Shown here piece by piece: positions 2,810 to 26,199 of a stretch of 28,035 bases of DNA. Within the stretch, counting starts at the first letter, position 1. Every line of letters begins with the position of its first letter. The position numbers and the translations under genes were made by a program. This DNA comes from a virus (Duplodnaviria; Heunggongvirae; Uroviricota; Caudoviricetes): positions 1 through 28,035 of the IMG/VR virus record IMGVR_UViG_2563366924_000006; one strand, written 5' to 3'. The notes under the pieces are model-generated. The model saw nothing but the letters and a program-made list of their open reading frames with translations, was not told where the DNA came from and ran no database searches.

Positions 2810-3324
2810 TAATCCACCACCTTACCAAGCGCATTATTGACGGGGTTCAATACCTTGCTTTCAAACCACGTCAGCTTCTGATCGCTTTCTTTCGCGGCGC
2901 TGCTGCTTGCGTCACCGGTGCCAGCTGATTGTTTTGCCGCTGCAGTACCATTTCGGGAATCGTTTCTTGCCTGGCGCTTTTCCGGAACGCTGTGTTTTTC
3001 ACGCAGCGTAAACTGGACACCCCAAGCCATTTTCCCATCCTGTTCCTGCGCCTCCAGCTTGCCCGCAAAATTGACCTGGCGAATGCCTACCGTGTTTGCT
3101 GTCAGGTTGGCCACACGGTAAAGTGCCAGCGCTCCACCGGCTGTCGTTGCGCTGGCCAGTGCAAAAAGACGCTTCAGCGTCTTTTCTTCAGAGAAGGGGA
3201 TCACCCCGCTTACCTGTAGCTCTTTGGCTTTAATACCCTGCTCTGCGCGGGTCGTGCTCGATGTCTGTCCTGACTGGTCTTTATCCTGATACTGCATCCC
3301 CAGCGTGACGCGCAGATTTTTCAT
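2809..3324 (-). CDS. Hypothetical tail-operon protein (about 171 aa from ATG at 3324)
   Basis: ORF track extends to 3366 through a TTG codon; the first ATG is at 3324 (MKNLRVTLGMQYQ...). Backbone-like GC. Low-complexity Ser/Ala/Gly-rich C-terminal region. No family recognised. Confidence 0.45.
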   Translation of the reverse strand: MKNLRVTLGMQYQDKDQSGQTSSTTRAEQGIKAKELQVSGVIPFSEEKTLKRLFALASATTAGGALALYRVANLTANTVGIRQVNFAGKLEAQEQDGKMAWGVQFTLREKHSVPEKRQARNDSRNGTAAAKQSAGTGDASSSAAKESDQKLTWFESKVLNPVNNALGKVVD

Positions 3325-18156: not shown

Positions 18157-19041
18157 TCAGATCCAGACTTTGTTTTTTTCGCCTGGATTTGCATCAGGCT
18201 GCTTAGTGGTACTTGTGCCAGCCAGCGCATCAAATTTCTGAGTAATGGCATCCAGTTTTCCATCCAGCTTGGTTTCCAGTTGGGTGAACTGCTCAACCGT
18301 AATACTCGTTACCACTGGCTTTTCTTCCGGTTTAACCTCCGGTTTTGCTGGCTCTGTAACTGGCTTGTCACCGGCATTGAACGCTTTCACCTGTTCCTGA
18401 ATGCCGGCAATAGCCGTATCCTGTTTTTCCATGCGCCCCATCAGCGCATCAAACTGTTCCTTGGTCATTTCGTCTTCTTCCGTGTTATGGGTTTGGGTTT
18501 CTTTGTTGCGACTAAATAGACGCGACAGAAACGATTTATCACGTGCGCTGGTTGGCTCATCCGCTTCTTTAAGCGCTCCGAGTGAGAAGGTTTCAACACT
18601 ACCGCGCACCACTGGTGACTCATGACCATCGATGCTAAACATCAGGCGCTCAGTCCCGAGACTTGCGGGGATGTCGGTCACAGCCAGGCCCATCAGATAG
18701 TACTTACCGCTATTAGCGAAATTGGGTATCAGTTCAACAGAAGTGAATAATTTTTGACCCATTTCATTGGTCGCAATAAGCCAGTCATTCGGCATCAGCT
18801 TTGCGTACATCTTCAGTACGCCATCAACCTTCTCAACTTTTACAGCGTCGATTTCGCCATAGTTGTAGCTCCATGAACGCTGCTCCATCGTTTCATCATG
18901 GCGCGGCCACATCAGACCGGTGTAAACCTGGCGGTTATAAAACTCGGCCGCTTCCTGCAGCCATTCTTCCTTGATTTCTCGCCCGTCAACCGTATTCCCT
19001 GCGGTAGCGATACAAACCCAGTCCGTGCGTAAACGAGTCAT
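18157..19041 (-). CDS. O: Capsid scaffolding protein, P2 gpO-like
   Basis: 294 aa (P2 gpO is 284 aa); resembles recalled gpO in the ATNEMGQKLFTSVELIPNFANSGKYYLMGLAVTD block; AAGGA ribosome-binding site; divergent from the terminase gene. Confidence 0.8.
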   Translation of the reverse strand: MTRLRTDWVCIATAGNTVDGREIKEEWLQEAAEFYNRQVYTGLMWPRHDETMEQRSWSYNYGEIDAVKVEKVDGVLKMYAKLMPNDWLIATNEMGQKLFTSVELIPNFANSGKYYLMGLAVTDIPASLGTERLMFSIDGHESPVVRGSVETFSLGALKEADEPTSARDKSFLSRLFSRNKETQTHNTEEDEMTKEQFDALMGRMEKQDTAIAGIQEQVKAFNAGDKPVTEPAKPEVKPEEKPVVTSITVEQFTQLETKLDGKLDAITQKFDALAGTSTTKQPDANPGEKNKVWI

Positions 19042-19230
19042 AACGTCCTTGTTTCATTGCTTTCCTGACCACAAGTAAAACGGAACTGGCCGTGAAATTC
19101 ACGCGCATCACTTTTGTTGCGTTCCGCTACAGGCTGTTATCGGAACGCATCGGAATCAGGCGAAATGCAACACGTTGCCATCCGGTCACAATAGGTACTC
19201 AAAGGGGCAACACGGGCAATCATCAGGACG
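19042..19230. promoter_or_regulatory. Divergent late promoter region between the O operon (-) and the P-Q operon (+), with a 9-10 bp dyad
   Basis: 189-bp intergenic region. Near-perfect inverted repeat TTGCGTTCCG (about 19117-19126) / CGGAACGCAT (about 19141-19150) with a 14-bp spacer; further CGGAAC/CGGAAT copies at about 19081 and 19151. Confidence 0.5.
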
Positions 19231-21003
19231 ATGGCACAAAAATATTCGGACGAAATCAGGGCAGTGGCGCGGCAGCTGTACCTGAAGCGATGGACACCGC
19301 AGGAAATCAAAGAGGAATTAAAACTCCCTTCAGTACGCATCGTTTATTACTGGGCTGAAAAATTCAGCTGGCGGGACATGCTCAGTGAAGAAGGAGTAGA
19401 AGCAGCTCTGTCACGCCGTATTCAGTTACTGACAGACCGGGATAAAAAGACAGATACCGACCTGCGAGAACTGGATCAGCTCGTTGGCCATCACGTCAAA
19501 ATCATGGCGCAGCGGGCAAAACGAGAAGAAAAGCTGCAGCAGCTGCAGAACGGCAATGTGACCACAAATAGCGGTGTCACCCTCACTGATGAGGGTAACA
19601 AGCAGGAGCGCAAAGGCCGCAAAAAGAAAAATGACATCAGCCATCTGACGGCAGAATCTTTTGCAGAATGGGTTTCTGTGCTGTTTGGCTACCAGCTGAC
19701 ATTGCGTGAGAACCTGCATCAGAAAATCCGCAACATCCTTAAAGCTCGCCAGTTAGGTGCAACCTGGTATTTTGCCGGTGAAGCACTGGAAGATGCCGTA
19801 TTAAACGGCAAACCGCAGGTGTTTTTGTCAGCGTCAAAGCGCCAGGCTGAGGTGTTCCGCTCTTACATAGTCAACATTGCCCAGCAATTTCTGGGTGTCG
19901 AACTGACAGGAAACCCCATCCGACTGAGCAACGGCGCAGAACTGAGTTTTCTCGGTACCAACAGCAACACGGCCCAGTCCAACAGCGCCAACGTCTATAT
20001 AGACGAGTATTTCTGGATACCGAAATTCCGCAAACTCAATGACGTGGCAAGTGCGATGGCCACGCACGACAAATGGCGGTTGACCTACTTTTCCACACCC
20101 AGCTCAAAAGCTCATGAAGCCTACCCGTTCTGGACTGGCGATGAATGGCGTCGCGGTCGGGCCGAACGAAAGGACGTTGTATTCCCGAAAGAAGCAGAGC
20201 TGCGTGATGGCGGTCGTCTGTGTCCGGATAAACACTGGCGTTTCATCGTCACTATTGAAGATGCCGTAAAAGCAGGATTTAACCTGGCGAACGTGGATGA
20301 CCTGCGCGACCGCTACAGCGGCCCGGCGTTCGACATGCTGTTTATGTGCGTGTTTGTCGATGATAAAGACGCCGTTTTTGCCTTCGACCAGTTAATGAAG
20401 TGCGGCACCGAACCAGCGTTATGGCAGGACTTTAAACAGGATGAGGCAAGGCCATTTGGCAACAGGGAGGTGTGGGGTGGCTATGACCCCAGTCGCACGA
20501 CGGACAGGGCCATTTTTGTGATTGTTGCACCACCTATTCACGCCGTTGAAAAATTCCGCTTGCTGAAGAAATGGGCCTGGACTGGTCTGTCTTTCAAGTA
20601 CCAGGCAGAACAAATCAAAAAAATCAAAGAACAATACAACCTGACGTACATCGGTATTGATGTGACGGGCATTGGTGCCGGCGTGTTCGACATTGTCAGT
20701 GCATTCGCCCCACGTGAAACAGTTCCCATTCATTACAGCGTGGAAAGCAAGAACCGTCTGGTACTGAAAATGATTGATACCGTTGTCGGCAACCGTATCG
20801 AGTGGGACAGGGAAGATAAGGACATTGCCGCCAGCTTTATGGCCATCAAGCGCACCACAACCAGCAGCGGCAATGCCATGACCTTTGTCGCCACACGATC
20901 AGTTGAAACCGGTCACGCAGACGATTTCTGGGCCATATCTCATGCAATGATTAATGAGCCGCTGAATACCGAACATAAACGCAAATCAAGATGGATTTTG
21001 TGA
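19231..21003 (+). CDS. P: Terminase large (ATPase) subunit, P2 gpP-like
   Basis: 590 aa, the same length as P2 gpP; AGGA ribosome-binding site; followed by the portal gene with a 13-nt overlap. Confidence 0.9.
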   Translation: MAQKYSDEIRAVARQLYLKRWTPQEIKEELKLPSVRIVYYWAEKFSWRDMLSEEGVEAALSRRIQLLTDRDKKTDTDLRELDQLVGHHVKIMAQRAKREEKLQQLQNGNVTTNSGVTLTDEGNKQERKGRKKKNDISHLTAESFAEWVSVLFGYQLTLRENLHQKIRNILKARQLGATWYFAGEALEDAVLNGKPQVFLSASKRQAEVFRSYIVNIAQQFLGVELTGNPIRLSNGAELSFLGTNSNTAQSNSANVYIDEYFWIPKFRKLNDVASAMATHDKWRLTYFSTPSSKAHEAYPFWTGDEWRRGRAERKDVVFPKEAELRDGGRLCPDKHWRFIVTIEDAVKAGFNLANVDDLRDRYSGPAFDMLFMCVFVDDKDAVFAFDQLMKCGTEPALWQDFKQDEARPFGNREVWGGYDPSRTTDRAIFVIVAPPIHAVEKFRLLKKWAWTGLSFKYQAEQIKKIKEQYNLTYIGIDVTGIGAGVFDIVSAFAPRETVPIHYSVESKNRLVLKMIDTVVGNRIEWDREDKDIAASFMAIKRTTTSSGNAMTFVATRSVETGHADDFWAISHAMINEPLNTEHKRKSRWIL

Positions 21004-22034
21004 TGAGCAGAAAGAATAAAAAGCAGCCTGTTACCGCCGAAAACACCGCGCCGGCGCAGCAAAAAATGTCGATGATCTCTTTTGGCAATCCGGAGCGGGC
21101 TATCCTAAATCCGCTCGAGTACGAGCCGGTCTATTTTGACAGTTCCAGCATGTACTACACGCCGCCGGTCAACCGACTGGCACTTGCAGAACTGCCCGAT
21201 ATTAACGGCCAGCATGGCGGCATATTGCGAGCCAGAACCAACATGATCACCGCCGATTTAATCAGTGGTGGCGGTATGCTTCAGGATGATATTCAGGCCA
21301 CAGTGTTAAACCTGCTGACTTTTGGGGATGTGGGGTTGCTCAAATTGCGTAACGCATTCGATAAAGTCATTGGCCTGCTGCCCCTGCCCTCGCTCTATAC
21401 CCGCCGCGGTAAAAACGGAAAGTTTTATGTGCTTCAGAAAAGTGGCCATCTGGAATATGCCAGCGCAGACATTATCTTTGTGAAGCTGTATGACACACGC
21501 CAGCAGGTCTACGGTAAACCGGATTATCTCGGCGGCATTCACTCTGCCATGCTCAATAATGAGGCCACTATTTTCCGTCGTCGCTATTACAAGAACGGCG
21601 CTCATCTTGGGTACATCCTTTACACCACTGACCCGAACATGACAGATGAAATGGAAGATGAGATGAAGGAACAAATTGCTGCAGGTAAAGGTGTCGGTAA
21701 CTTTAAATCAATGCTGATTAACATCCCGAACGGAAAGGAAAAAGGTGTGCAACTGCTCCCGGTCAGCGATATGGGGGCAAAAGATGAGTTTGTTAACATC
21801 AAAAATATCAGCATGCAGGATATTTTGAACGCTCACCGCTTCCCACCAGGCCTCGCCGGTATGATGCCGAACAATAACAGCTCATTCCCCGACATCACGA
21901 AAACCCGCGACGCATACCAGCGTGATGAAGTGATCCCGGTGCAAAAACTCATTAGCGATGCTGTGAACACAGATAAGGAAATACCCGCAAACTTGCGCAT
22001 TAATTTTGCACAATCAAAGCCGAACGAGGCATAA
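20991..22034 (+). CDS. Q: Portal protein, P2 gpQ-like
   Basis: 347 aa (P2 gpQ is 344 aa); EATIFRRRYYKNGAHLGYILYTTDP closely matches recalled P2 gpQ AATLFRRRYYLNGSHMGYILYLTDP. Confidence 0.9.
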   Translation: MDFVMSRKNKKQPVTAENTAPAQQKMSMISFGNPERAILNPLEYEPVYFDSSSMYYTPPVNRLALAELPDINGQHGGILRARTNMITADLISGGGMLQDDIQATVLNLLTFGDVGLLKLRNAFDKVIGLLPLPSLYTRRGKNGKFYVLQKSGHLEYASADIIFVKLYDTRQQVYGKPDYLGGIHSAMLNNEATIFRRRYYKNGAHLGYILYTTDPNMTDEMEDEMKEQIAAGKGVGNFKSMLINIPNGKEKGVQLLPVSDMGAKDEFVNIKNISMQDILNAHRFPPGLAGMMPNNNSSFPDITKTRDAYQRDEVIPVQKLISDAVNTDKEIPANLRINFAQSKPNEA

Positions 22035-22095
22035 TAGCGTGAAAATTAATCATAAGAAGTATTATCGGTTACCGTCAAACGCAAGGAGCAGAGGT

Positions 22096-22356
22096 ATGCG
22101 CATTAAATGTCCTGAGTGTGGATCAAGAGCGATTATTAAAACAACAAATCCAATCCACCCTCAGCTTTCCGAACTCTACTGCGCCTGTGGCGATGTGAAT
22201 TGTGGCCATACATATGTTTTGCAGGTGTCGTTTAAACATACGTTAAGCCCGAGCAGAAAATCACTTGATGATTTACTGGTGGGGTTGATTGGCTCGCTCG
22301 GCCAGAAACAAAAGGCCGAGCTAATCAGCCGGCTGAGTCACTCAGCTGCAGCATAG
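22096..22356 (+). CDS. ogr: Ogr/Delta-family zinc-finger late transcription activator
   Basis: From the ATG at 22096 (AAGGAG ribosome-binding site): MRIKCPECGSRAIIKTTNPIHPQLSELYCACGDVNCGHTY, matching the Ogr Cys pattern (recalled P2 Ogr CPLCQHAAHARTSRYITDTTKERYHQCQNVNCSATF). The ORF track start at 22006 is a TTG. Confidence 0.85.
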   Translation: MRIKCPECGSRAIIKTTNPIHPQLSELYCACGDVNCGHTYVLQVSFKHTLSPSRKSLDDLLVGLIGSLGQKQKAELISRLSHSAAA

Positions 22357-22376: not shown

Positions 22377-25031
22377 CTATTTATCCCGACTGAACACCCA
22401 GCAGCGGAATGTTTCTGGCATTCGCTGCATTTCCCCTTTGCCCTTGTTCGCCCGTTCGCTAACCGCACTACGTTTCGTCGTTTGGCCTATGAAACGTCGC
22501 TCACTGCTGCTTTTAAGGAGTTTTTTGATTTCCGTTAATGTGAAATTCATACGCTGCCGGTGAGCTGCGGCGACTTCCTCCATGTGATTAAAGTTAACGG
22601 CTATTTCACTGTCATCTGTTGAATGATTTATACCGAACGGCGCAAGTTCATCAAGATAATCAAACAGCTCCCAGAACTCCTGAACAAGTGGATGATCCTT
22701 TTTGAGTGCATGGCAGCGCTCGATGGCCAGCGCGGTGATGGCTTCACGTGTTTTATGAATACGGTCAACAGAAAGAGGCACAACAAGCGCCAGCGCTTCG
22801 AGCAACCCCGCTAATTGAGCATGGTTTTTCGCTACACGGATATGACGAATATCAGGGTGTGTTTCCAGTTCATTACGGGCGCGTTCATAACCACGGCCAT
22901 AAGCTTCCAGCACTTCCTGTTCTCGCATAATGGACTGCAGAGTAAAGCCTGAAACCTGGCTAACCGGTATTTGCTCAAGGCGTTCAGCTGCGTGGCGGGT
23001 ATGAATAGACTGGCCACGTTTATCGGTATAGATATGAATGATACGCTCCAGAAATGCCTTGCTGCCGTCTGTATCCGCATTCTGTGCTATCACGATAGCG
23101 CCCCGGAATGGCGGCTCGTATGTCTCGTTATTGTTAGATTTGATACCCACGGCGCGGGATGCGCGACCGTTATAAAGGGATTTCAGCTCATCCCAGTCAA
23201 AAGCGCGCTGTTTAGCATTATCCGTGGTGCGGTCACCTTCTATCAGCACTACAGGCAAATTCCCTACCTGTGCAAAGTTACGGCCACGCGCTGCAGGTGT
23301 AGATTTTGACGGGTCAAAACCTTCATATTCTTCACGGCCAGCAAGCTTCCAGAGAAATTCTATCAGGGTAGATTTACCCGTGCCGGGTTCACCGACAATT
23401 TCCAGAAACGGGAAAGATTTATCACGCTCGCGTATCTGTTCAGCAAATAACGAACCCAGCCAGAACGCCAACGCCACATATCCTTTTTCACCAAATGCCG
23501 TCCAGATATCATCCACCCAACCCGTAGTGAACTCATTCAATTTTGGATTTAGATCCAGTGATGGCGTTAGGCTCAGACTTTTAACGCTGGCACTGTTGAT
23601 TTCGAAATAATCCTCATCGTTCATCTCATACAGCTTGCCACTGCAGACCGCCACTCGGTTAAACAACCAGGCTGAATAATCTTTGTTATAGCCGATAAAA
23701 TTCTGCGTTTTCACTTCTTTGATTTCTGGAAGCCGCAACTGGATAAACTTATCCAGCTGTTTGGTACTGCCGGTGTAAACCGCACCTTTAGCAATATGCA
23801 AAAGGCGCTTTTTAAATTCTGCAGAGCTGGTCAGTTGATTCGCAGTAAACGTGTCCTTAATCGCGGGGTGATTGGGCATATTTACTTTCACGTAATACCA
23901 AGATTCATCCGTCGGCTCAGAGCGCTGGTAATACAACGGAGTCAGCCAGCAGTTGGCGATTTCAGTCACGCAGCCAGATTCTTTCACTGCCCGCGCCTTG
24001 GCTTCCCATTCCATCACCACTTCCTGCCCGGAATTAGCGATACGGTCATAGGCTCTCATGTATCTGTCCAGGTCCAGTTCGAACCAGTACATGCGGGAAC
24101 CATGCTCAAAATAGAAGGAATGCCACTCATTATGCTGATGCATCAGCAGGGCTTTTTCAGTCGGGCTTTTTGCCAGCAGAAGATCGCCAAAATAACGATA
24201 GTTTTTGATGTCCGATTTGCTAAATCTGTCGCGGATTAGCAGGTCATTCCAGTCAAGTTCAACTGCTGTTTTGAGCGGCTGCGCCGCCCGGACATCCCAG
24301 CCAGCAGACTTGCTGCGTGATGCAAATGAAAGGGTGTGTTTCGTTCCGGCCTTATCGCCATCAAAGGCCCAAACCAGACGTGGCCGGGGTTTCTCACCCA
24401 GTTCTTTAGCCAGCGCATCGAGCGAGGCCAGAGGATAGTTATTGCTACTGAGTGTAGCCACAGCGGGTAAACCGGCCTGGCATAAACTGAGAGCGTTAAA
24501 AATACCCTCAGTTATCCAGATTTCTTTTGCATCAGGCAGGTGGATAAACGGCGGCACCCACCAGTGACCACCGTAATTGCCTGAGAAATGCGCCTTCTGT
24601 TTGAAACGGTCTGGCTGGTCAATGATGCGCTCCCATGTAGCGCCGTTGGCCAGCTTAAATTTAACAGTGGCACTACCCAGCCCATGACGGACAAACGCGC
24701 CCTGGGTAAAACAACCTTTGAGAATGTCAGTATCAAGGCCACGCGCTTCACGTAAATACGCTTCTGCCGCAGCAGCCGGTGATTCGACTGTTGCGACATA
24801 CCGCTTTGACCAGTCCTCAAAAATATCGGAATACAGCTCTTTGACTGCGACCTCCTTACCGCATTTATTTTCACGGCCACATTTAAGAAGCCAGGGCTTT
24901 TCCGCACTGGTAAATAGTTCGCGTTTCTGGCAAGCAGGGCAAACACCCTGCTGTAAATATTTATCTTTCTCTTTAAATTCAAAATCATTAATGAGACGGC
25001 GAACAACTTCCTGTTGTATGGATACGTTCAT
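22377..25031 (-). CDS. Phage P4 alpha-type primase-helicase replication protein
   Basis: 884 aa; N-terminal zinc-ribbon (CPACQ...CGRENKCG), primase/Toprim-like acidic region (EGIFNALS, WAFDGDKAG), Walker A GEPGTGKST in the central helicase-like domain, long C-terminal domain. Confidence 0.85.
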   Translation of the reverse strand: MNVSIQQEVVRRLINDFEFKEKDKYLQQGVCPACQKRELFTSAEKPWLLKCGRENKCGKEVAVKELYSDIFEDWSKRYVATVESPAAAAEAYLREARGLDTDILKGCFTQGAFVRHGLGSATVKFKLANGATWERIIDQPDRFKQKAHFSGNYGGHWWVPPFIHLPDAKEIWITEGIFNALSLCQAGLPAVATLSSNNYPLASLDALAKELGEKPRPRLVWAFDGDKAGTKHTLSFASRSKSAGWDVRAAQPLKTAVELDWNDLLIRDRFSKSDIKNYRYFGDLLLAKSPTEKALLMHQHNEWHSFYFEHGSRMYWFELDLDRYMRAYDRIANSGQEVVMEWEAKARAVKESGCVTEIANCWLTPLYYQRSEPTDESWYYVKVNMPNHPAIKDTFTANQLTSSAEFKKRLLHIAKGAVYTGSTKQLDKFIQLRLPEIKEVKTQNFIGYNKDYSAWLFNRVAVCSGKLYEMNDEDYFEINSASVKSLSLTPSLDLNPKLNEFTTGWVDDIWTAFGEKGYVALAFWLGSLFAEQIRERDKSFPFLEIVGEPGTGKSTLIEFLWKLAGREEYEGFDPSKSTPAARGRNFAQVGNLPVVLIEGDRTTDNAKQRAFDWDELKSLYNGRASRAVGIKSNNNETYEPPFRGAIVIAQNADTDGSKAFLERIIHIYTDKRGQSIHTRHAAERLEQIPVSQVSGFTLQSIMREQEVLEAYGRGYERARNELETHPDIRHIRVAKNHAQLAGLLEALALVVPLSVDRIHKTREAITALAIERCHALKKDHPLVQEFWELFDYLDELAPFGINHSTDDSEIAVNFNHMEEVAAAHRQRMNFTLTEIKKLLKSSSERRFIGQTTKRSAVSERANKGKGEMQRMPETFRCWVFSRDK

Positions 25032-25071: not shown

Positions 25072-25290
25072 TCAGAATTTTATCTGTTTGTTATACCGCT
25101 CATGCGTCATTAATACCCAACGCTGACCTTTATCTTTACTAAGTAAACGCCAGCGTAAAGAAACATGAATAGATAAGTAATGTTTTGGTTTAATGACCTG
25201 ATAAACTTTTCTGCCATCGTAGTATTCACTAAGCATTGAAAATGACTTGTTAATGACATTTTCATTTGCATGAGAAGTCACAATTAACAT
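25072..25290 (-). CDS. Small basic hypothetical protein (54-72 aa) in the AT-rich cargo block
   Basis: ORF starts immediately after the stop of the exonuclease gene; very AT-rich; no clear ribosome-binding site; no family recognised. Confidence 0.3.
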   Translation of the reverse strand: MLIVTSHANENVINKSFSMLSEYYDGRKVYQVIKPKHYLSIHVSLRWRLLSKDKGQRWVLMTHERYNKQIKF

Positions 25291-25292
25291 AG

Positions 25293-25853
25293 CTATTTCA
25301 CACTGTTTTTTATGCCAAGGAACATCCAGATATAAGAAACAATTTTGATATTATGAAGCGCATGTGCCAGTGAGTTACGCTGAAAGTCATATTTAATAAT
25401 GCTATTCATATTCAGCCCAAGTTCTTCTGCTATTGTCACCATGGTAATGACACTCTGCTCATTAGCTTCAAGAAAACACTGACCGGCGAACCTGTCCAGG
25501 TAATGATGTATCACCTTGCTATGCATGGACGGACAACCAAACCAGGTCTTGACGTATTTGGCATCAGAATTTTCAATGATAAACCCGTACAGGTCACAGA
25601 TAGCCAGCTCAATATCCTGACAATCATCATCCAGTATCTGACTGCGAACCTCTGAAGGCTGACGTAACCACCACTGGATAGCGTGGGCACTTACCGTACC
25701 GCCATTACTCATACAGTCATCAAGGCTGATACGTCTGTAGAATTGCTTACCAACCTCCCCAGTTGTAGGGTCAAAGAAAACGGCGCTTAAACCCGTAATA
25801 GCTGCGGTGTGCTTTTCGTCCATCAGTTCTACATCAATCATTAAATGTTGCAT
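25293..25853 (-). CDS. 3'-5' exonuclease, T4 DexA-like (DEDD-type)
   Basis: From the ATG at 25853 (AAGGA ribosome-binding site): MQHLMIDVELMDEKHTAAITGLSAVFFDP... resembles the recalled T4 DexA N-terminus (DFETMG..EKAAVIDLSVIAFDP); second block HAIQWWLRQPSEVRSQI versus STIEWWKNQSPEARKNI. The ORF track N-terminal extension to 25973 is hydrophobic and lacks a ribosome-binding site. Confidence 0.65.
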   Translation of the reverse strand: MQHLMIDVELMDEKHTAAITGLSAVFFDPTTGEVGKQFYRRISLDDCMSNGGTVSAHAIQWWLRQPSEVRSQILDDDCQDIELAICDLYGFIIENSDAKYVKTWFGCPSMHSKVIHHYLDRFAGQCFLEANEQSVITMVTIAEELGLNMNSIIKYDFQRNSLAHALHNIKIVSYIWMFLGIKNSVK

Positions 25854-25866
25854 GTGGATATCCTTA

Positions 25867-26199
25867 TCAGGAAACGTGGCGAGAATTGGAGGAAGTATTA
25901 CGCTTACGCGCAACACTATTAGCAGCCAGAGATATAAGGCCGGGAACACTGCTTTCTTCAGGAACCTGACCACTGAACACCATTAATGTGATGGTGTGCA
26001 ATTCTTCATAGTCTGTTATGTCATTATTAAAATGCGCAGATGACGAAATACCTTCAAGGCATTTTGCCAATTTGATATTCAACTCCATCAACTGCAAAGC
26101 ATCGCTATGAATAGCTGACTGGTCAGTATTGATGTTTTCAATTTGATTATGATAATTCTGCAACAAACTACGAATTATCGTGGCGTATTTTGCTTTCAT
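25867..26199 (-). CDS. Hypothetical early protein (about 110 aa) in the AT-rich cargo block
   Basis: First gene after cox on the same strand; AT-rich; basic Ser-rich C-terminus; start uncertain (ATG at 26199 or GTG at 26232); no family recognised. Confidence 0.35.
   Translation of the reverse strand: MKAKYATIIRSLLQNYHNQIENINTDQSAIHSDALQLMELNIKLAKCLEGISSSAHFNNDITDYEELHTITLMVFSGQVPEESSVPGLISLAANSVARKRNTSSNSRHVS

What the first reader, a model, noticed from the sequence alone, without database searches (positions are those of the whole stretch)
19042..19230. Near-perfect 10-bp dyad and repeated CGGAAC motifs in the divergent late promoter region
The P2 late promoters are activated by Ogr at sites of partial dyad symmetry (TGT-N12-ACA). 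No exact TGT-N12-ACA site is obvious here. Instead there is a longer dyad, TTGCGTTCCG-N14-CGGAACGCAT, with extra CGGAAC copies, between the divergently transcribed O and P operons. This may be the cognate site of the local Ogr-like activator, which has a C-terminal extension relative to P2 Ogr, or a hairpin-forming element.
Basis: seen in the sequence. Interest (0 to 1): 0.35.

Follow-up and report, generated by a model that had tools for sequence, protein, structure and literature searches.

The report
Variant Ogr-activator site between late operons
The inverted repeat between the capsid-scaffold and terminase genes of this P2-like prophage is most likely where the phage's own Ogr-type zinc-finger activator binds to switch on both divergent late operons; this is the known P2 design with a different recognition sequence, so it is a useful refinement and not a surprise.

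Summary
TGCGTTCCG (19118-19126) and CGGAACGCA (19141-19149) are perfect 9-bp inverted arms 14 nt apart, in the 189-bp gap between O (scaffold, minus strand) and P (terminase, plus strand). Extra half-sites lie in 10-bp register.

The core TTCCG-N14-CGGAA has the same 5-N14-5 geometry as P2's activator sites. It also lies where P2 has its single shared pO/pP site: about 93 bp from the O start here, 95 bp in P2.

Of 127 unique homologous O-P spacers, 87 carry a perfect-core dyad at that place (TTCGG, TTCCG or TTCCT; shuffles 0.08%). It occurs once per complete genome. -10-like hexamers sit 55-58 bp from the dyad centre on both sides. That puts the site near -66, one helical turn further out than P2's -55.5.

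The half-site tracks the Ogr homologue encoded after Q. Residue 26 is Asp in all 48 TTCGG phages and Glu/Gln/Asn in all 9 TTCCG phages. A recombination junction at the O start keeps the spacer with P-Q-ogr.

The hairpin, host-factor and chance readings are disfavoured. Verdict: a lineage-specific variant of the known Ogr-dependent late promoter, inferred from comparison only. Interest is moderate to low.

The parts
19122..19145 (.). Core dyad TTCCG-N14-CGGAA (half-sites L1 19122-19126 and R1 19141-19145), centre 19133.5. Proposed binding site of the Ogr-like activator, shared by both divergent late promoters. The extended arms are 19118-19129 and 19138-19149.
   Evidence: sequence. (a homologous dyad in 87 of 127 unique relatives against 0.08% of shuffles). 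(same geometry and position as the P2 activator sites).
19112..19116 (.). Outer left half-site L2 (TTTTG, degenerate), 10 bp from L1. It reads TTCCG in relative L088 and TTTCG in L087.
   Evidence: outer TTC/GAA half-sites 10 bp out are part of the clade consensus.
19151..19165 (.). Outer right half-sites R2 (CGGAA, 19151-19155) and R3 (CGAAA, 19161-19165; CGGAA in relatives L087-L090), each 10 bp from the previous one.
   Evidence: direct repeat ATCGGAA at 19139 and 19149. (alignment A2)..
19187..19192 (+). Predicted -10 hexamer of the rightward late promoter (P-Q-ogr operon): CACAAT (CAGAAT in relatives). Its centre is 56 bp from the dyad centre. The predicted start is near 19199, the ribosome-binding site AGGA is at 19225-19228, and the P start codon is at 19231.
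   Evidence: 84 of 88 anchored relatives have a -10-like hexamer centred 55-58 bp from the dyad centre on the P side; background about 6%. No transcript mapping has been done.
19074..19079 (-). Predicted, weak -10 hexamer of the leftward late promoter (O-N-M-L...tail operon): TTTACT on the minus strand (TTAACT in relatives). Its centre is 57 bp from the dyad centre, and the predicted start is near 19067.
   Evidence: 61 of 88 relatives have a -10-like hexamer centred 55-58 bp out on the O side. The window's own hexamer lacks the A at position 2, so this is inferred from position only.
19081..19086 (.). The extra CGGAAC copy, directly next to the predicted P_O -10. With TTCCT (19062-19066) it forms an imperfect second dyad, TTCCT-N14-CGGAA, centred at 19073.5. 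Its role is unexplained.
   Evidence: a one-mismatch match. (CGGAAC is kept in all 7 close relatives with the same Ogr type and is absent in Buttiauxella).
22096..22356 (+). Gene for the Ogr/Delta-type zinc-finger activator (86 aa), directly after the portal gene Q. It is the proposed partner of the dyad. Residue Glu26 co-varies with the fourth base of the half-site.
   Evidence: Pfam Ogr_Delta 5e-17; phrog_603. (33% identity to P2 Ogr over the zinc finger). (co-variation).
18157..19041 (-). The O-like capsid scaffold gene, first gene of the leftward late operon.
   Evidence: Pfam Phage_GPO 4e-46.
19231..21003 (+). The P-like large terminase gene, first gene of the rightward late operon.
   Evidence: Terminase_6N, Terminase_6C, Terminase_5.

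Best explanation
The dyad is the upstream activator site of a bidirectional late promoter region of the P2 type. The phage's own Ogr-family zinc-finger protein (gene 22096-22356) binds the symmetric half-sites TTCCG and CGGAA (19122-19145), probably as a dimer or a higher oligomer. The additional half-sites lie one helical turn out on each side. From that single position, about 66 bp upstream of each start, the protein recruits host RNA polymerase to two weak promoters that lack a -35 element. One points left (O, N, M, L and the roughly 18-kb head, lysis and tail operon) and one points right (P, Q and ogr itself).

Shown here: the sequence; its conservation, position and geometry relative to P2; the phased -10-like elements; and the co-variation with Ogr.

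Inferred, not shown: actual binding, the transcription starts, the oligomeric state, and contact with the polymerase alpha subunit. The alpha contact is carried over from what is known of P2 Ogr.
For: 1. Context. The window is a P2-like prophage of the Evevirus/Seongnamvirus kind, with O and P divergent and an Ogr_Delta gene after Q.

2. P2 precedent. The P2 record annotates one 'activator binding site; pO, pP promoters' at 3057-3087, with transcript starts at 3016 and 3127. The site centre is therefore at -55.5 for both promoters and 95 bp from the O start. In the window the dyad centre is 92.5 bp from the O start.

3. Geometry. The P2 sites read tGTTG-N14-CATCC (pO/pP) and GGTTG-N14-CAACC (pF). 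This is the same 5-N14-5 layout as TTCCG-N14-CGGAA.

4. Conservation. Of 127 unique homologous spacers, 87 have a perfect-core dyad TTC(GG/CG/CT)-N13/14-(CC/CG/AG)GAA, with the centre a median of 97 bp from the O start. Only 0.08% of shuffles have one. The hosts range from Enterobacterales to Pseudodesulfovibrio.

5. One site per genome. The exact class-specific dyad occurs once in each of four complete genomes, always in the O-P gap, against 0-0.1 expected.

6. Promoter phasing. -10-like hexamers are centred 55-58 bp from the dyad centre in 84 of 88 relatives on the P side and 61 of 88 on the O side, against a background of about 5-6%. In the window these are CACAAT and TTTACT.

7. No sigma-70 consensus promoter is found in the spacer.

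8. Co-variation. Ogr residue 26 is Asp in 48 of 48 unique TTCGG phages, and Glu, Gln or Asn in 9 of 9 TTCCG phages from four lineages. It is the only fully discriminating alignment column. Two sister pairs show the switch: the window group against Buttiauxella, ev239 and ESSI-2; and Oceanimonas/Zobellella against Aeromonas.

9. Mosaic. The window's O gene is 96-97% identical to Buttiauxella, but the spacer, P, Q and ogr are 94-99% identical to the C. davisae prophage. The dyad type follows ogr.
Against: - There is no experimental binding, footprint, reporter or transcript-start datum for this phage or any member of this clade. The K139 GenBank record annotates only putative sigma-70 promoters in this gap.
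- The half-site does not match the published TGT-N12-ACA consensus.
- The predicted distance of about -66 differs from P2's -55.5.
- The O-side -10 of the window itself (TTTACT) is weak and was assigned by position only.
- The residue-26 correlation has one exception (Shewanella L031: Asp with TTCCG...TGGAA). It rests on few independent evolutionary switches and could partly reflect shared ancestry.
- About 30% of the relatives have only imperfect dyads.
- The structure model of the activator has low confidence (pLDDT 55) and says nothing reliable about DNA contacts.
Confidence: 0.8

Rival explanations
1. The dyad acts as a nucleic-acid structure: a DNA cruciform, or an RNA hairpin serving as terminator, attenuator or processing site. 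It is not a protein recognition sequence.
For: The single strand can fold into a 9-bp stem: -11.6 kcal/mol as DNA, z = -2.6, with 2 of 200 shuffles folding as well.
Against: - The dyad lies upstream of both predicted starts, so late transcripts would not contain it.
- The half-site sequence TTCSG itself is conserved across relatives whose O proteins are only about 40% identical, and not merely the pairing.
- Many relatives have uncompensated arm changes: TTTCG with CGGAA in L087-L090, and right arms CAGAA, TCGAA or ACGAA in IMG/VR relatives.
- Extra half-sites at 10-bp steps lie outside any stem.
- There is no T-run and no Rfam match.
Confidence: 0.04
2. The dyad is the operator of a different regulator: the immunity repressor, Cox, another phage protein or a host factor. 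That regulator would control the late operons or some other process.
For: No binding data exist. Symmetric sites with 10-bp phased copies are typical of many repressors. The second imperfect dyad over the predicted P_O core promoter (19062-19085) would suit a repressor.
Against: - The early and immunity modules differ among phages that share the dyad. The window and ev239 have a P2 C-type regulator plus Cox; ESSI-2 and K139 have the CI/CII type.
- An Ogr homologue was recovered next to most of these spacers. Where it was not, the locus was usually cut short.
- The half-site co-varies with an Ogr residue and is inherited with ogr.
- Closely related hosts (Cedecea, Buttiauxella) carry different half-sites, while very distant hosts carry the same one. 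That argues against a host factor.
- The position matches the annotated P2 activator site.
Confidence: 0.1
3. This is a variant of the main model: two overlapping activator sites instead of one shared site. L2 pairs with R1 for the leftward promoter and L1 pairs with R2 for the rightward one. Each pair has about a 24-nt gap and each is centred near -61 of its own promoter.
For: Four phased half-sites are the clade norm. A centre near -61 would resemble classical class I activator positions (own knowledge of CRP at -61.5).
Against: - P2 uses one shared 5-N14-5 site.
- The inner pair is by far the best conserved. The outer half-sites are exact in only 20 of 38 (left) and 12 of 38 (right) relatives, and are degenerate in the window (TTTTG).
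Confidence: 0.15
4. The inverted repeat is a chance feature of an intergenic region.
For: About 1% of shuffled 189-bp spacers contain some perfect 9-bp inverted repeat, and the window has three others.
Against: The dyad is conserved at the same place in 87 of 127 unique relatives, against 0.08% of shuffles. It occurs exactly once per genome. -10-like elements are phased symmetrically around it.
Confidence: 0.01

Closest known systems
Phage P2 shared pO/pP activator (Ogr) binding site, and the P2/P4 late-promoter consensus TGT-N12-ACA
   Same: - A single element of dyad symmetry lies midway between the divergent O and P operons.
- The 5-N14-5 layout is the same: P2 has tGTTG-N14-CATCC and GGTTG-N14-CAACC.
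- The distance to the O start is about the same: 95 bp in P2, 92.5 bp here.
- The promoters are weak and lack a -35 element.
- The phage encodes an Ogr/Delta zinc-finger activator.
(consensus as quoted in PMC3931495.)
   Different: - The half-site is TTCCG/CGGAA, not TGT/ACA.
- Extra half-sites lie one helical turn out on each side; P2 shows none.
- The predicted position is about -66 against -55.5, because the -10 hexamers are centred 56-57 bp from the dyad centre here and 46 bp in P2.
- The activator is 86 aa, only 33% identical to Ogr over 39 residues, and its gene follows Q instead of D.
- There is only one such site per genome, against three in the P2 record: one shared by pO/pP, plus pV and pF.
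Ralstonia P2-like phages phiRSA1/phiRSY1: TGTTGT-N13-ACAACA upstream of four late operons (PMC5694545)
   Same: A lineage-specific version of the Ogr site, proposed from sequence alone. It is a dyad with a spacer of about 13 nt, upstream of late genes that lack sigma-70 promoters.
   Different: That motif is still of the TGT/ACA type and occurs at four promoters. Here the half-site is TTCSG and there is a single bidirectional site.
Vibrio phage K139 orf16/orf17 intergenic region (GenBank AF125163)
   Same: It belongs to the same clade and has the same architecture. The sequence TTCGGgtgaaTTCGGATAT-N6-ATATCCGAAattggCGGAA sits between the scaffold and terminase genes, and the zinc-finger gene orf13 lies beyond the portal gene.
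   Different: The record annotates only putative sigma-70 promoters P16 and P17 there and no activator site. The half-site is TTCGG, and its Ogr has Asp at position 26 where the window has Glu.
Satellite phage P4 Delta sites
   Same: Same activator family. From my own recollection of Julien and Calendar (1995), which I could not read here, Delta protects sites near -55 and a second site near -18 in the P4 promoters. That would be an analogue of the CGGAAC next to the predicted P_O -10.
   Different: Delta is a tandem double Ogr domain and recognises TGT-N12-ACA. The analogy to the -18 site is a recollection, not a test.

Membership tests
Ogr/Delta-dependent late promoter of P2-type phages | An element of (partial) dyad symmetry upstream of late morphogenetic operons, shared by the divergent O and P operons. 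| tested here: met
   The dyad at 19122-19145 lies between O and P. The P2 record has one shared pO/pP site, and its distance to the O start is nearly the same.
Ogr/Delta-dependent late promoter of P2-type phages | Consensus sequence TGT-N12-ACA. | tested here: not met
   The spacer has no TGT-N12-ACA. The half-sites are TTCCG and CGGAA. Only the overall 5-N14-5 geometry is shared with the P2 sites.
Ogr/Delta-dependent late promoter of P2-type phages | Site centred near -55 from the transcription start. | tested here: inconclusive
   No transcript starts are known. The conserved -10-like hexamers, centred 55-58 bp from the dyad centre, predict about -66 on both sides. That is one helical turn further out than P2.
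Ogr/Delta-dependent late promoter of P2-type phages | No recognisable -35 element or sigma-70 consensus promoter; a weak -10. | tested here: met
   The consensus scan finds no promoter in 18900-19400. The candidate -10 hexamers are CACAAT and TTTACT.
Ogr/Delta-dependent late promoter of P2-type phages | The same phage encodes an Ogr/Delta-family C4 zinc-finger activator. | tested here: met
   The gene at 22096-22356 matches Pfam PF04606 (E = 5e-17) and phrog_603. The Cys pattern C5-x2-C8-x22-C31-x4-C36 can be read from the translation. This is the CX2CX22CX4C spacing quoted for Ogr in PMC3931495.
Ogr/Delta-dependent late promoter of P2-type phages | Transcription depends on the activator and on the alpha subunit of host RNA polymerase. 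| not testable with these tools
   This needs reporter assays or in vitro transcription. The only indirect support is the co-variation and co-inheritance of the site with ogr.
Ogr/Delta-dependent late promoter of P2-type phages | The same site recurs at the other late promoters of the phage (pV and pF in P2). | tested here: not met
   There is only one exact site per genome in the window, ev239, ESSI-2 and K139. The window's one-mismatch hits elsewhere all lie inside genes. The minus-strand late genes run on with essentially no intergenic gaps, so a single bidirectional region may be enough.
Intrinsic terminator / structured RNA | A stem followed by a T-run, or a match to a curated RNA family, inside a transcript. 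| tested here: not met
   The only terminator-like hit in 18900-19400 lies at 18945-18963, inside the O gene, and none is at the dyad. Rfam gives no match in the window. The dyad is upstream of both predicted starts.

The most novel reading that the evidence does not exclude
In a large K139/ESSI-2-like branch of the P2 family, Ogr proteins recognise TTCSG half-sites instead of TGT/ACA. A single side chain, residue 26 of the zinc ribbon, sets the fourth base: Asp gives TTCGG, and Glu, Gln or Asn gives TTCCG. The longer C-terminal helices of these proteins let them assemble on four to five half-sites phased at 10 bp. One oligomer at about -66 would then fire both divergent late promoters. That would be a simple recognition code for a bacterial zinc-finger activator family whose DNA contacts, to my knowledge, have not been worked out. 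I found no structural study in this library.
Probability: 0.3. Interest if true: 0.5.

Novelty: new variant of a known kind. Interest (0 to 1): 0.35.

Why it matters
Late-gene control by Ogr is a classic model of activator-dependent transcription. Its DNA recognition has been summarised by one loose consensus, TGT-N12-ACA, taken from P2, P4 and close relatives.

The data here make three points:
- A much larger branch of the family keeps the P2 layout but reads a different half-site, uses several phased copies, and probably sits one helical turn further upstream. This branch includes K139-like, Aeromonas, Pseudomonas and ESSI-2/Evevirus-like prophages.
- The data give a concrete, cheap test: swap residue 26 or the fourth base of the half-site and watch the specificity.
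- Searching these prophages for TGT-N12-ACA will miss their late promoters. Records such as K139's list sigma-70 promoters at a place where an activator site is more likely.

None of this overturns the accepted mechanism.

Tried and rejected
- Megablast of the region against phage records found nothing. Only distant blastn reached the relatives.
I treated the hits as mostly chance matches and did not inspect them. One (L137) lies on the same contig as L085, which carries a 100% identical Ogr. The scan was not informative.
- A search for the dyad at other late-operon segments of the window found one-mismatch hits only inside genes (8581, 13815, 15096). Their number is near chance: 4 observed outside the main site against 1.6 expected.
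- TGT-N11-ACA at 19115-19131, which I read from the sequence, overlaps the left arm. It is not kept in close relatives, so I rejected it as a P2-type site.
- The papers that would carry K139 late-promoter or Delta footprint data are not held in the library: Kapfhammer 2002 and Julien and Calendar 1995. Statements about them are marked as recollection.
- Full-text searches found no description of a TTCGG or TTCCG activator site.
- The single-sequence AlphaFold model of the activator is of low confidence (pLDDT 54.7). I used it only for a rough secondary-structure outline: three strands, then two C-terminal helices. I ran no fold search on it.
- No tRNA genes and no Rfam families were found in the window.

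Full report
**What is in the sequence.** The coordinates 19042-19230 are exactly the gap between two divergent genes. On the minus strand is a P2 gpO-type scaffold gene (18157-19041). On the plus strand is a gpP-type large terminase gene (19231-21003), followed by the portal gene Q (20991-22034). TGCGTTCCG (19118-19126) and CGGAACGCA (19141-19149) are perfect inverted 9-mers 14 nt apart. CGGAAC occurs three times in these 189 bp, where about 0.1 would be expected from the 15 copies in the whole window. CGGAAT (19151) and CGAAAT (19161) follow the right arm at 10-bp steps. The spacer contains no TGT-N12-ACA and no sigma-70 consensus promoter. A perfect 9-bp inverted repeat appears in about 1% of shuffled spacers, so the repeat needs outside evidence to be judged.

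**What the element belongs to.** The window is a prophage that is colinear with the Peduoviridae genera Evevirus (ev239) and Seongnamvirus (ESSI-2). It has a P2-type head module, one uninterrupted minus-strand run of head, lysis and tail genes, and an Ogr/Delta zinc-finger gene directly after Q (22096-22356, Pfam PF04606, E = 5e-17). The closest genomes are prophages of Cedecea davisae DSM 4568 and Buttiauxella gaviniae. The window is a mosaic of the two. The 5' half of O is 96-97% identical to Buttiauxella and only 65-71% identical to C. davisae. From about 19000 onwards (spacer, P, Q, ogr) it is 94-99% identical to C. davisae.

**Comparison with P2.** The P2 reference record annotates a single 'activator binding site; pO, pP promoters' at 3057-3087, with transcript starts at 3016 (P operon) and 3127 (O operon). 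Reading the sequence, the P2 dyad is tGTTG-N14-CATCC, centred at 3071.5. That is -55.5 for both promoters, and 95 bp from the O start. The pF site is GGTTG-N14-CAACC. The window's TTCCG-N14-CGGAA has the same 5-N14-5 layout, and its centre (19133.5) is 92.5 bp from the O start. The published shorthand for the P2 site is TGT-N12-ACA (quoted in PMC3931495). A Ralstonia lineage has TGTTGT-N13-ACAACA (PMC5694545). Lineage-specific versions of the site are therefore already on record.

**Conservation.** I collected O-P spacers from 80 genome loci, 6 close IMG/VR relatives and 80 further IMG/VR loci found with an Ogr alignment.
- Of 127 unique spacers, 87 carry a perfect-core dyad TTC(GG/CG/CT)-N13/14-(CC/CG/AG)GAA, against 0.08% of shuffles. 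The centre is a median of 97 bp from the O start.
- Examples are Aeromonas ATTCGGAT-N10-ATCCGAAT, Oceanimonas AATTCCGAT-N9-ATCGGAATT, Pseudomonas AAATTCCTATT-N7-AATAGGAATTT and Pseudodesulfovibrio ATTCCGATT-N7-AATCGGAAT. K139 has TTCGGgtgaaTTCGGATAT-N6-ATATCCGAAattggCGGAA.
- The clade consensus shows further TTC and GAA half-sites 10 bp outside each arm. These are exact in 20 of 38 relatives on the left and 12 of 38 on the right.
In the window they are L2 (TTTTG, 19112), R2 (CGGAA, 19151) and R3 (CGAAA, 19161). The close relatives L087-L090 have CGGAA at all three right-hand positions.
- In the four complete genomes the exact dyad occurs once, always in this gap, against 0-0.1 expected.

**Promoter geometry.** I anchored 88 unique spacers on the dyad centre.
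- -10-like hexamers (A at position 2, T at position 6, at least 4 of 6 matches to TATAAT) are centred 55-58 bp away in 84 spacers on the P side and 61 on the O side. The background expectation is 5-6%.
- The hexamers include TATGAT, CATAAT, CAGAAT and GATACT. They also include TAGCCT, which is the hexamer at -12 to -7 of P2's mapped pP start.
- In the window they are CACAAT (19187-19192) and, weaker, TTTACT (19079-19074). These predict starts near 19199 and 19067, so the dyad would sit at about -66 for both promoters.
- In P2 the corresponding hexamers are centred 46 bp from the site centre. This clade therefore places the site 10-11 bp, one helical turn, further out, on the same face of the DNA. 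This is inference; no transcript ends are available.

**Link to the activator.**
- An Ogr homologue was recovered next to most of these spacers. In most genome loci its gene lies directly after Q.
- The immunity modules differ between phages that share the dyad: P2 C-type plus Cox in some, CI/CII type in others.
- In an alignment of unique pairs of Ogr and site, residue 26 (window numbering, five residues before the third zinc ligand) is Asp in 48 of 48 TTCGG phages. It is Glu, Gln or Asn in 9 of 9 TTCCG phages from four lineages. These are the window group, Oceanimonas/Zobellella, Rheinheimera and Pseudodesulfovibrio.
- It is the only fully discriminating column. One apparent exception, L213, was a mis-assigned site.
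- Shewanella L031 is an imperfect exception: Asp with TTCCG...TGGAA.
- Within the enteric group, Buttiauxella shares a 98% identical O with the window, but its Ogr is only 53% identical to the window's, carries Asp26, and has the TTCGG dyad. The site follows ogr, not O.

**Rivals.**
- Hairpin. A hairpin is thermodynamically possible (-11.6 kcal/mol, z = -2.6). But the dyad is upstream of both predicted starts, the half-site sequence is what is conserved, arm changes are often uncompensated, the phased outer copies lie outside any stem, and there is no T-run or Rfam match.
- Host factor. This is unlikely because sister hosts carry different half-sites while very distant hosts carry the same one.
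- Another phage regulator. This is unlikely because only Ogr is common to the clade.
- One site or two. I cannot decide between one central site with accessory half-sites and two overlapping sites offset by 10 bp.

**Unexplained.** The CGGAAC at 19081-19086 sits directly next to the predicted P_O -10. With TTCCT (19062) it forms a one-mismatch dyad over the core promoter. The CGGAAC is kept in all seven close relatives with the same Ogr type, although its flanks diverge, and it is absent in Buttiauxella. It may be a second, proximal activator contact or an autoregulatory site.

**Verdict.** The element is a lineage-specific variant of the known Ogr-dependent P2 late promoter architecture. It has a different half-site, multiple phased half-sites, a probable position near -66, and one bidirectional site per genome. 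I found no description of this variant in the searchable literature, and the K139 record does not annotate it. Interest is moderate to low (0.35). The main value is a testable one-residue, one-base recognition rule and better annotation of late promoters in this large prophage clade.

Noticed in passing
window 18500-19050: There is a recombination junction at or near the O start codon. The 5' half of O is 96-97% identical to a Buttiauxella gaviniae prophage and 65-71% identical to the C. davisae DSM 4568 prophage. Everything from about 19000 to about 23500 is 94-99% identical to C. davisae. The window is therefore not identical to either representative genome.
   Followed up: partly
window 19062-19086: A second, imperfect dyad TTCCT-N14-CGGAA lies over the predicted core of the leftward promoter. 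Its CGGAAC arm is conserved in 7 of 7 close relatives with the same Ogr type and not in Buttiauxella. Its function is unknown.
   Followed up: partly
window 22007-22098: The ogr gene follows Q after 61 bp. A sigma-70-like candidate promoter, TGCACA-17-CATAAT, overlaps the end of Q. The activator could therefore have its own promoter and also be read through from the late P-Q operon, giving positive feedback.
   Followed up: no
window 25072-25290 (-): A small ORF matches a ParE-like toxin domain (PF24732, E = 9e-15). It sits between the Rv2179c-like 3'-5' exoribonuclease gene (25293-25973) and the primase gene. No obvious antitoxin partner was examined.
   Followed up: no
window 22377-25031 (-): The replication gene is an 884-aa Toprim/DUF5906 primase (phrog_1139), as in ev239. 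ESSI-2 instead has a protein annotated 'nicking at origin of replication', the product name the P2 record gives gpA. The replication module is therefore exchanged within this phage group.
   Followed up: no
window 19167-19174 and 19207-19214: There is an exact 8-bp direct repeat, GCAACACG, 40 bp apart. One copy lies upstream and one downstream of the predicted rightward start. AATGCAAC and TTGCCATC are conserved in the close relatives. This was not explained.
   Followed up: no
L084 (K139) 15433-15445: In K139 the -10-like TATGAT lies 6 nt before the annotated terminase ATG. The predicted transcript would therefore start at or next to the start codon, giving a leaderless mRNA. The P2 record shows the same for pV, with both the transcript start and the V start codon at 10308.
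   Followed up: no
L083 (P2) 10243-10259: Read directly from the P2 sequence, the pV dyad is TGT-N11-ACA (TTGT-N11-ACAA), not N12. The spacing varies by one base in P2, just as it does here (N13 or N14).
   Followed up: no
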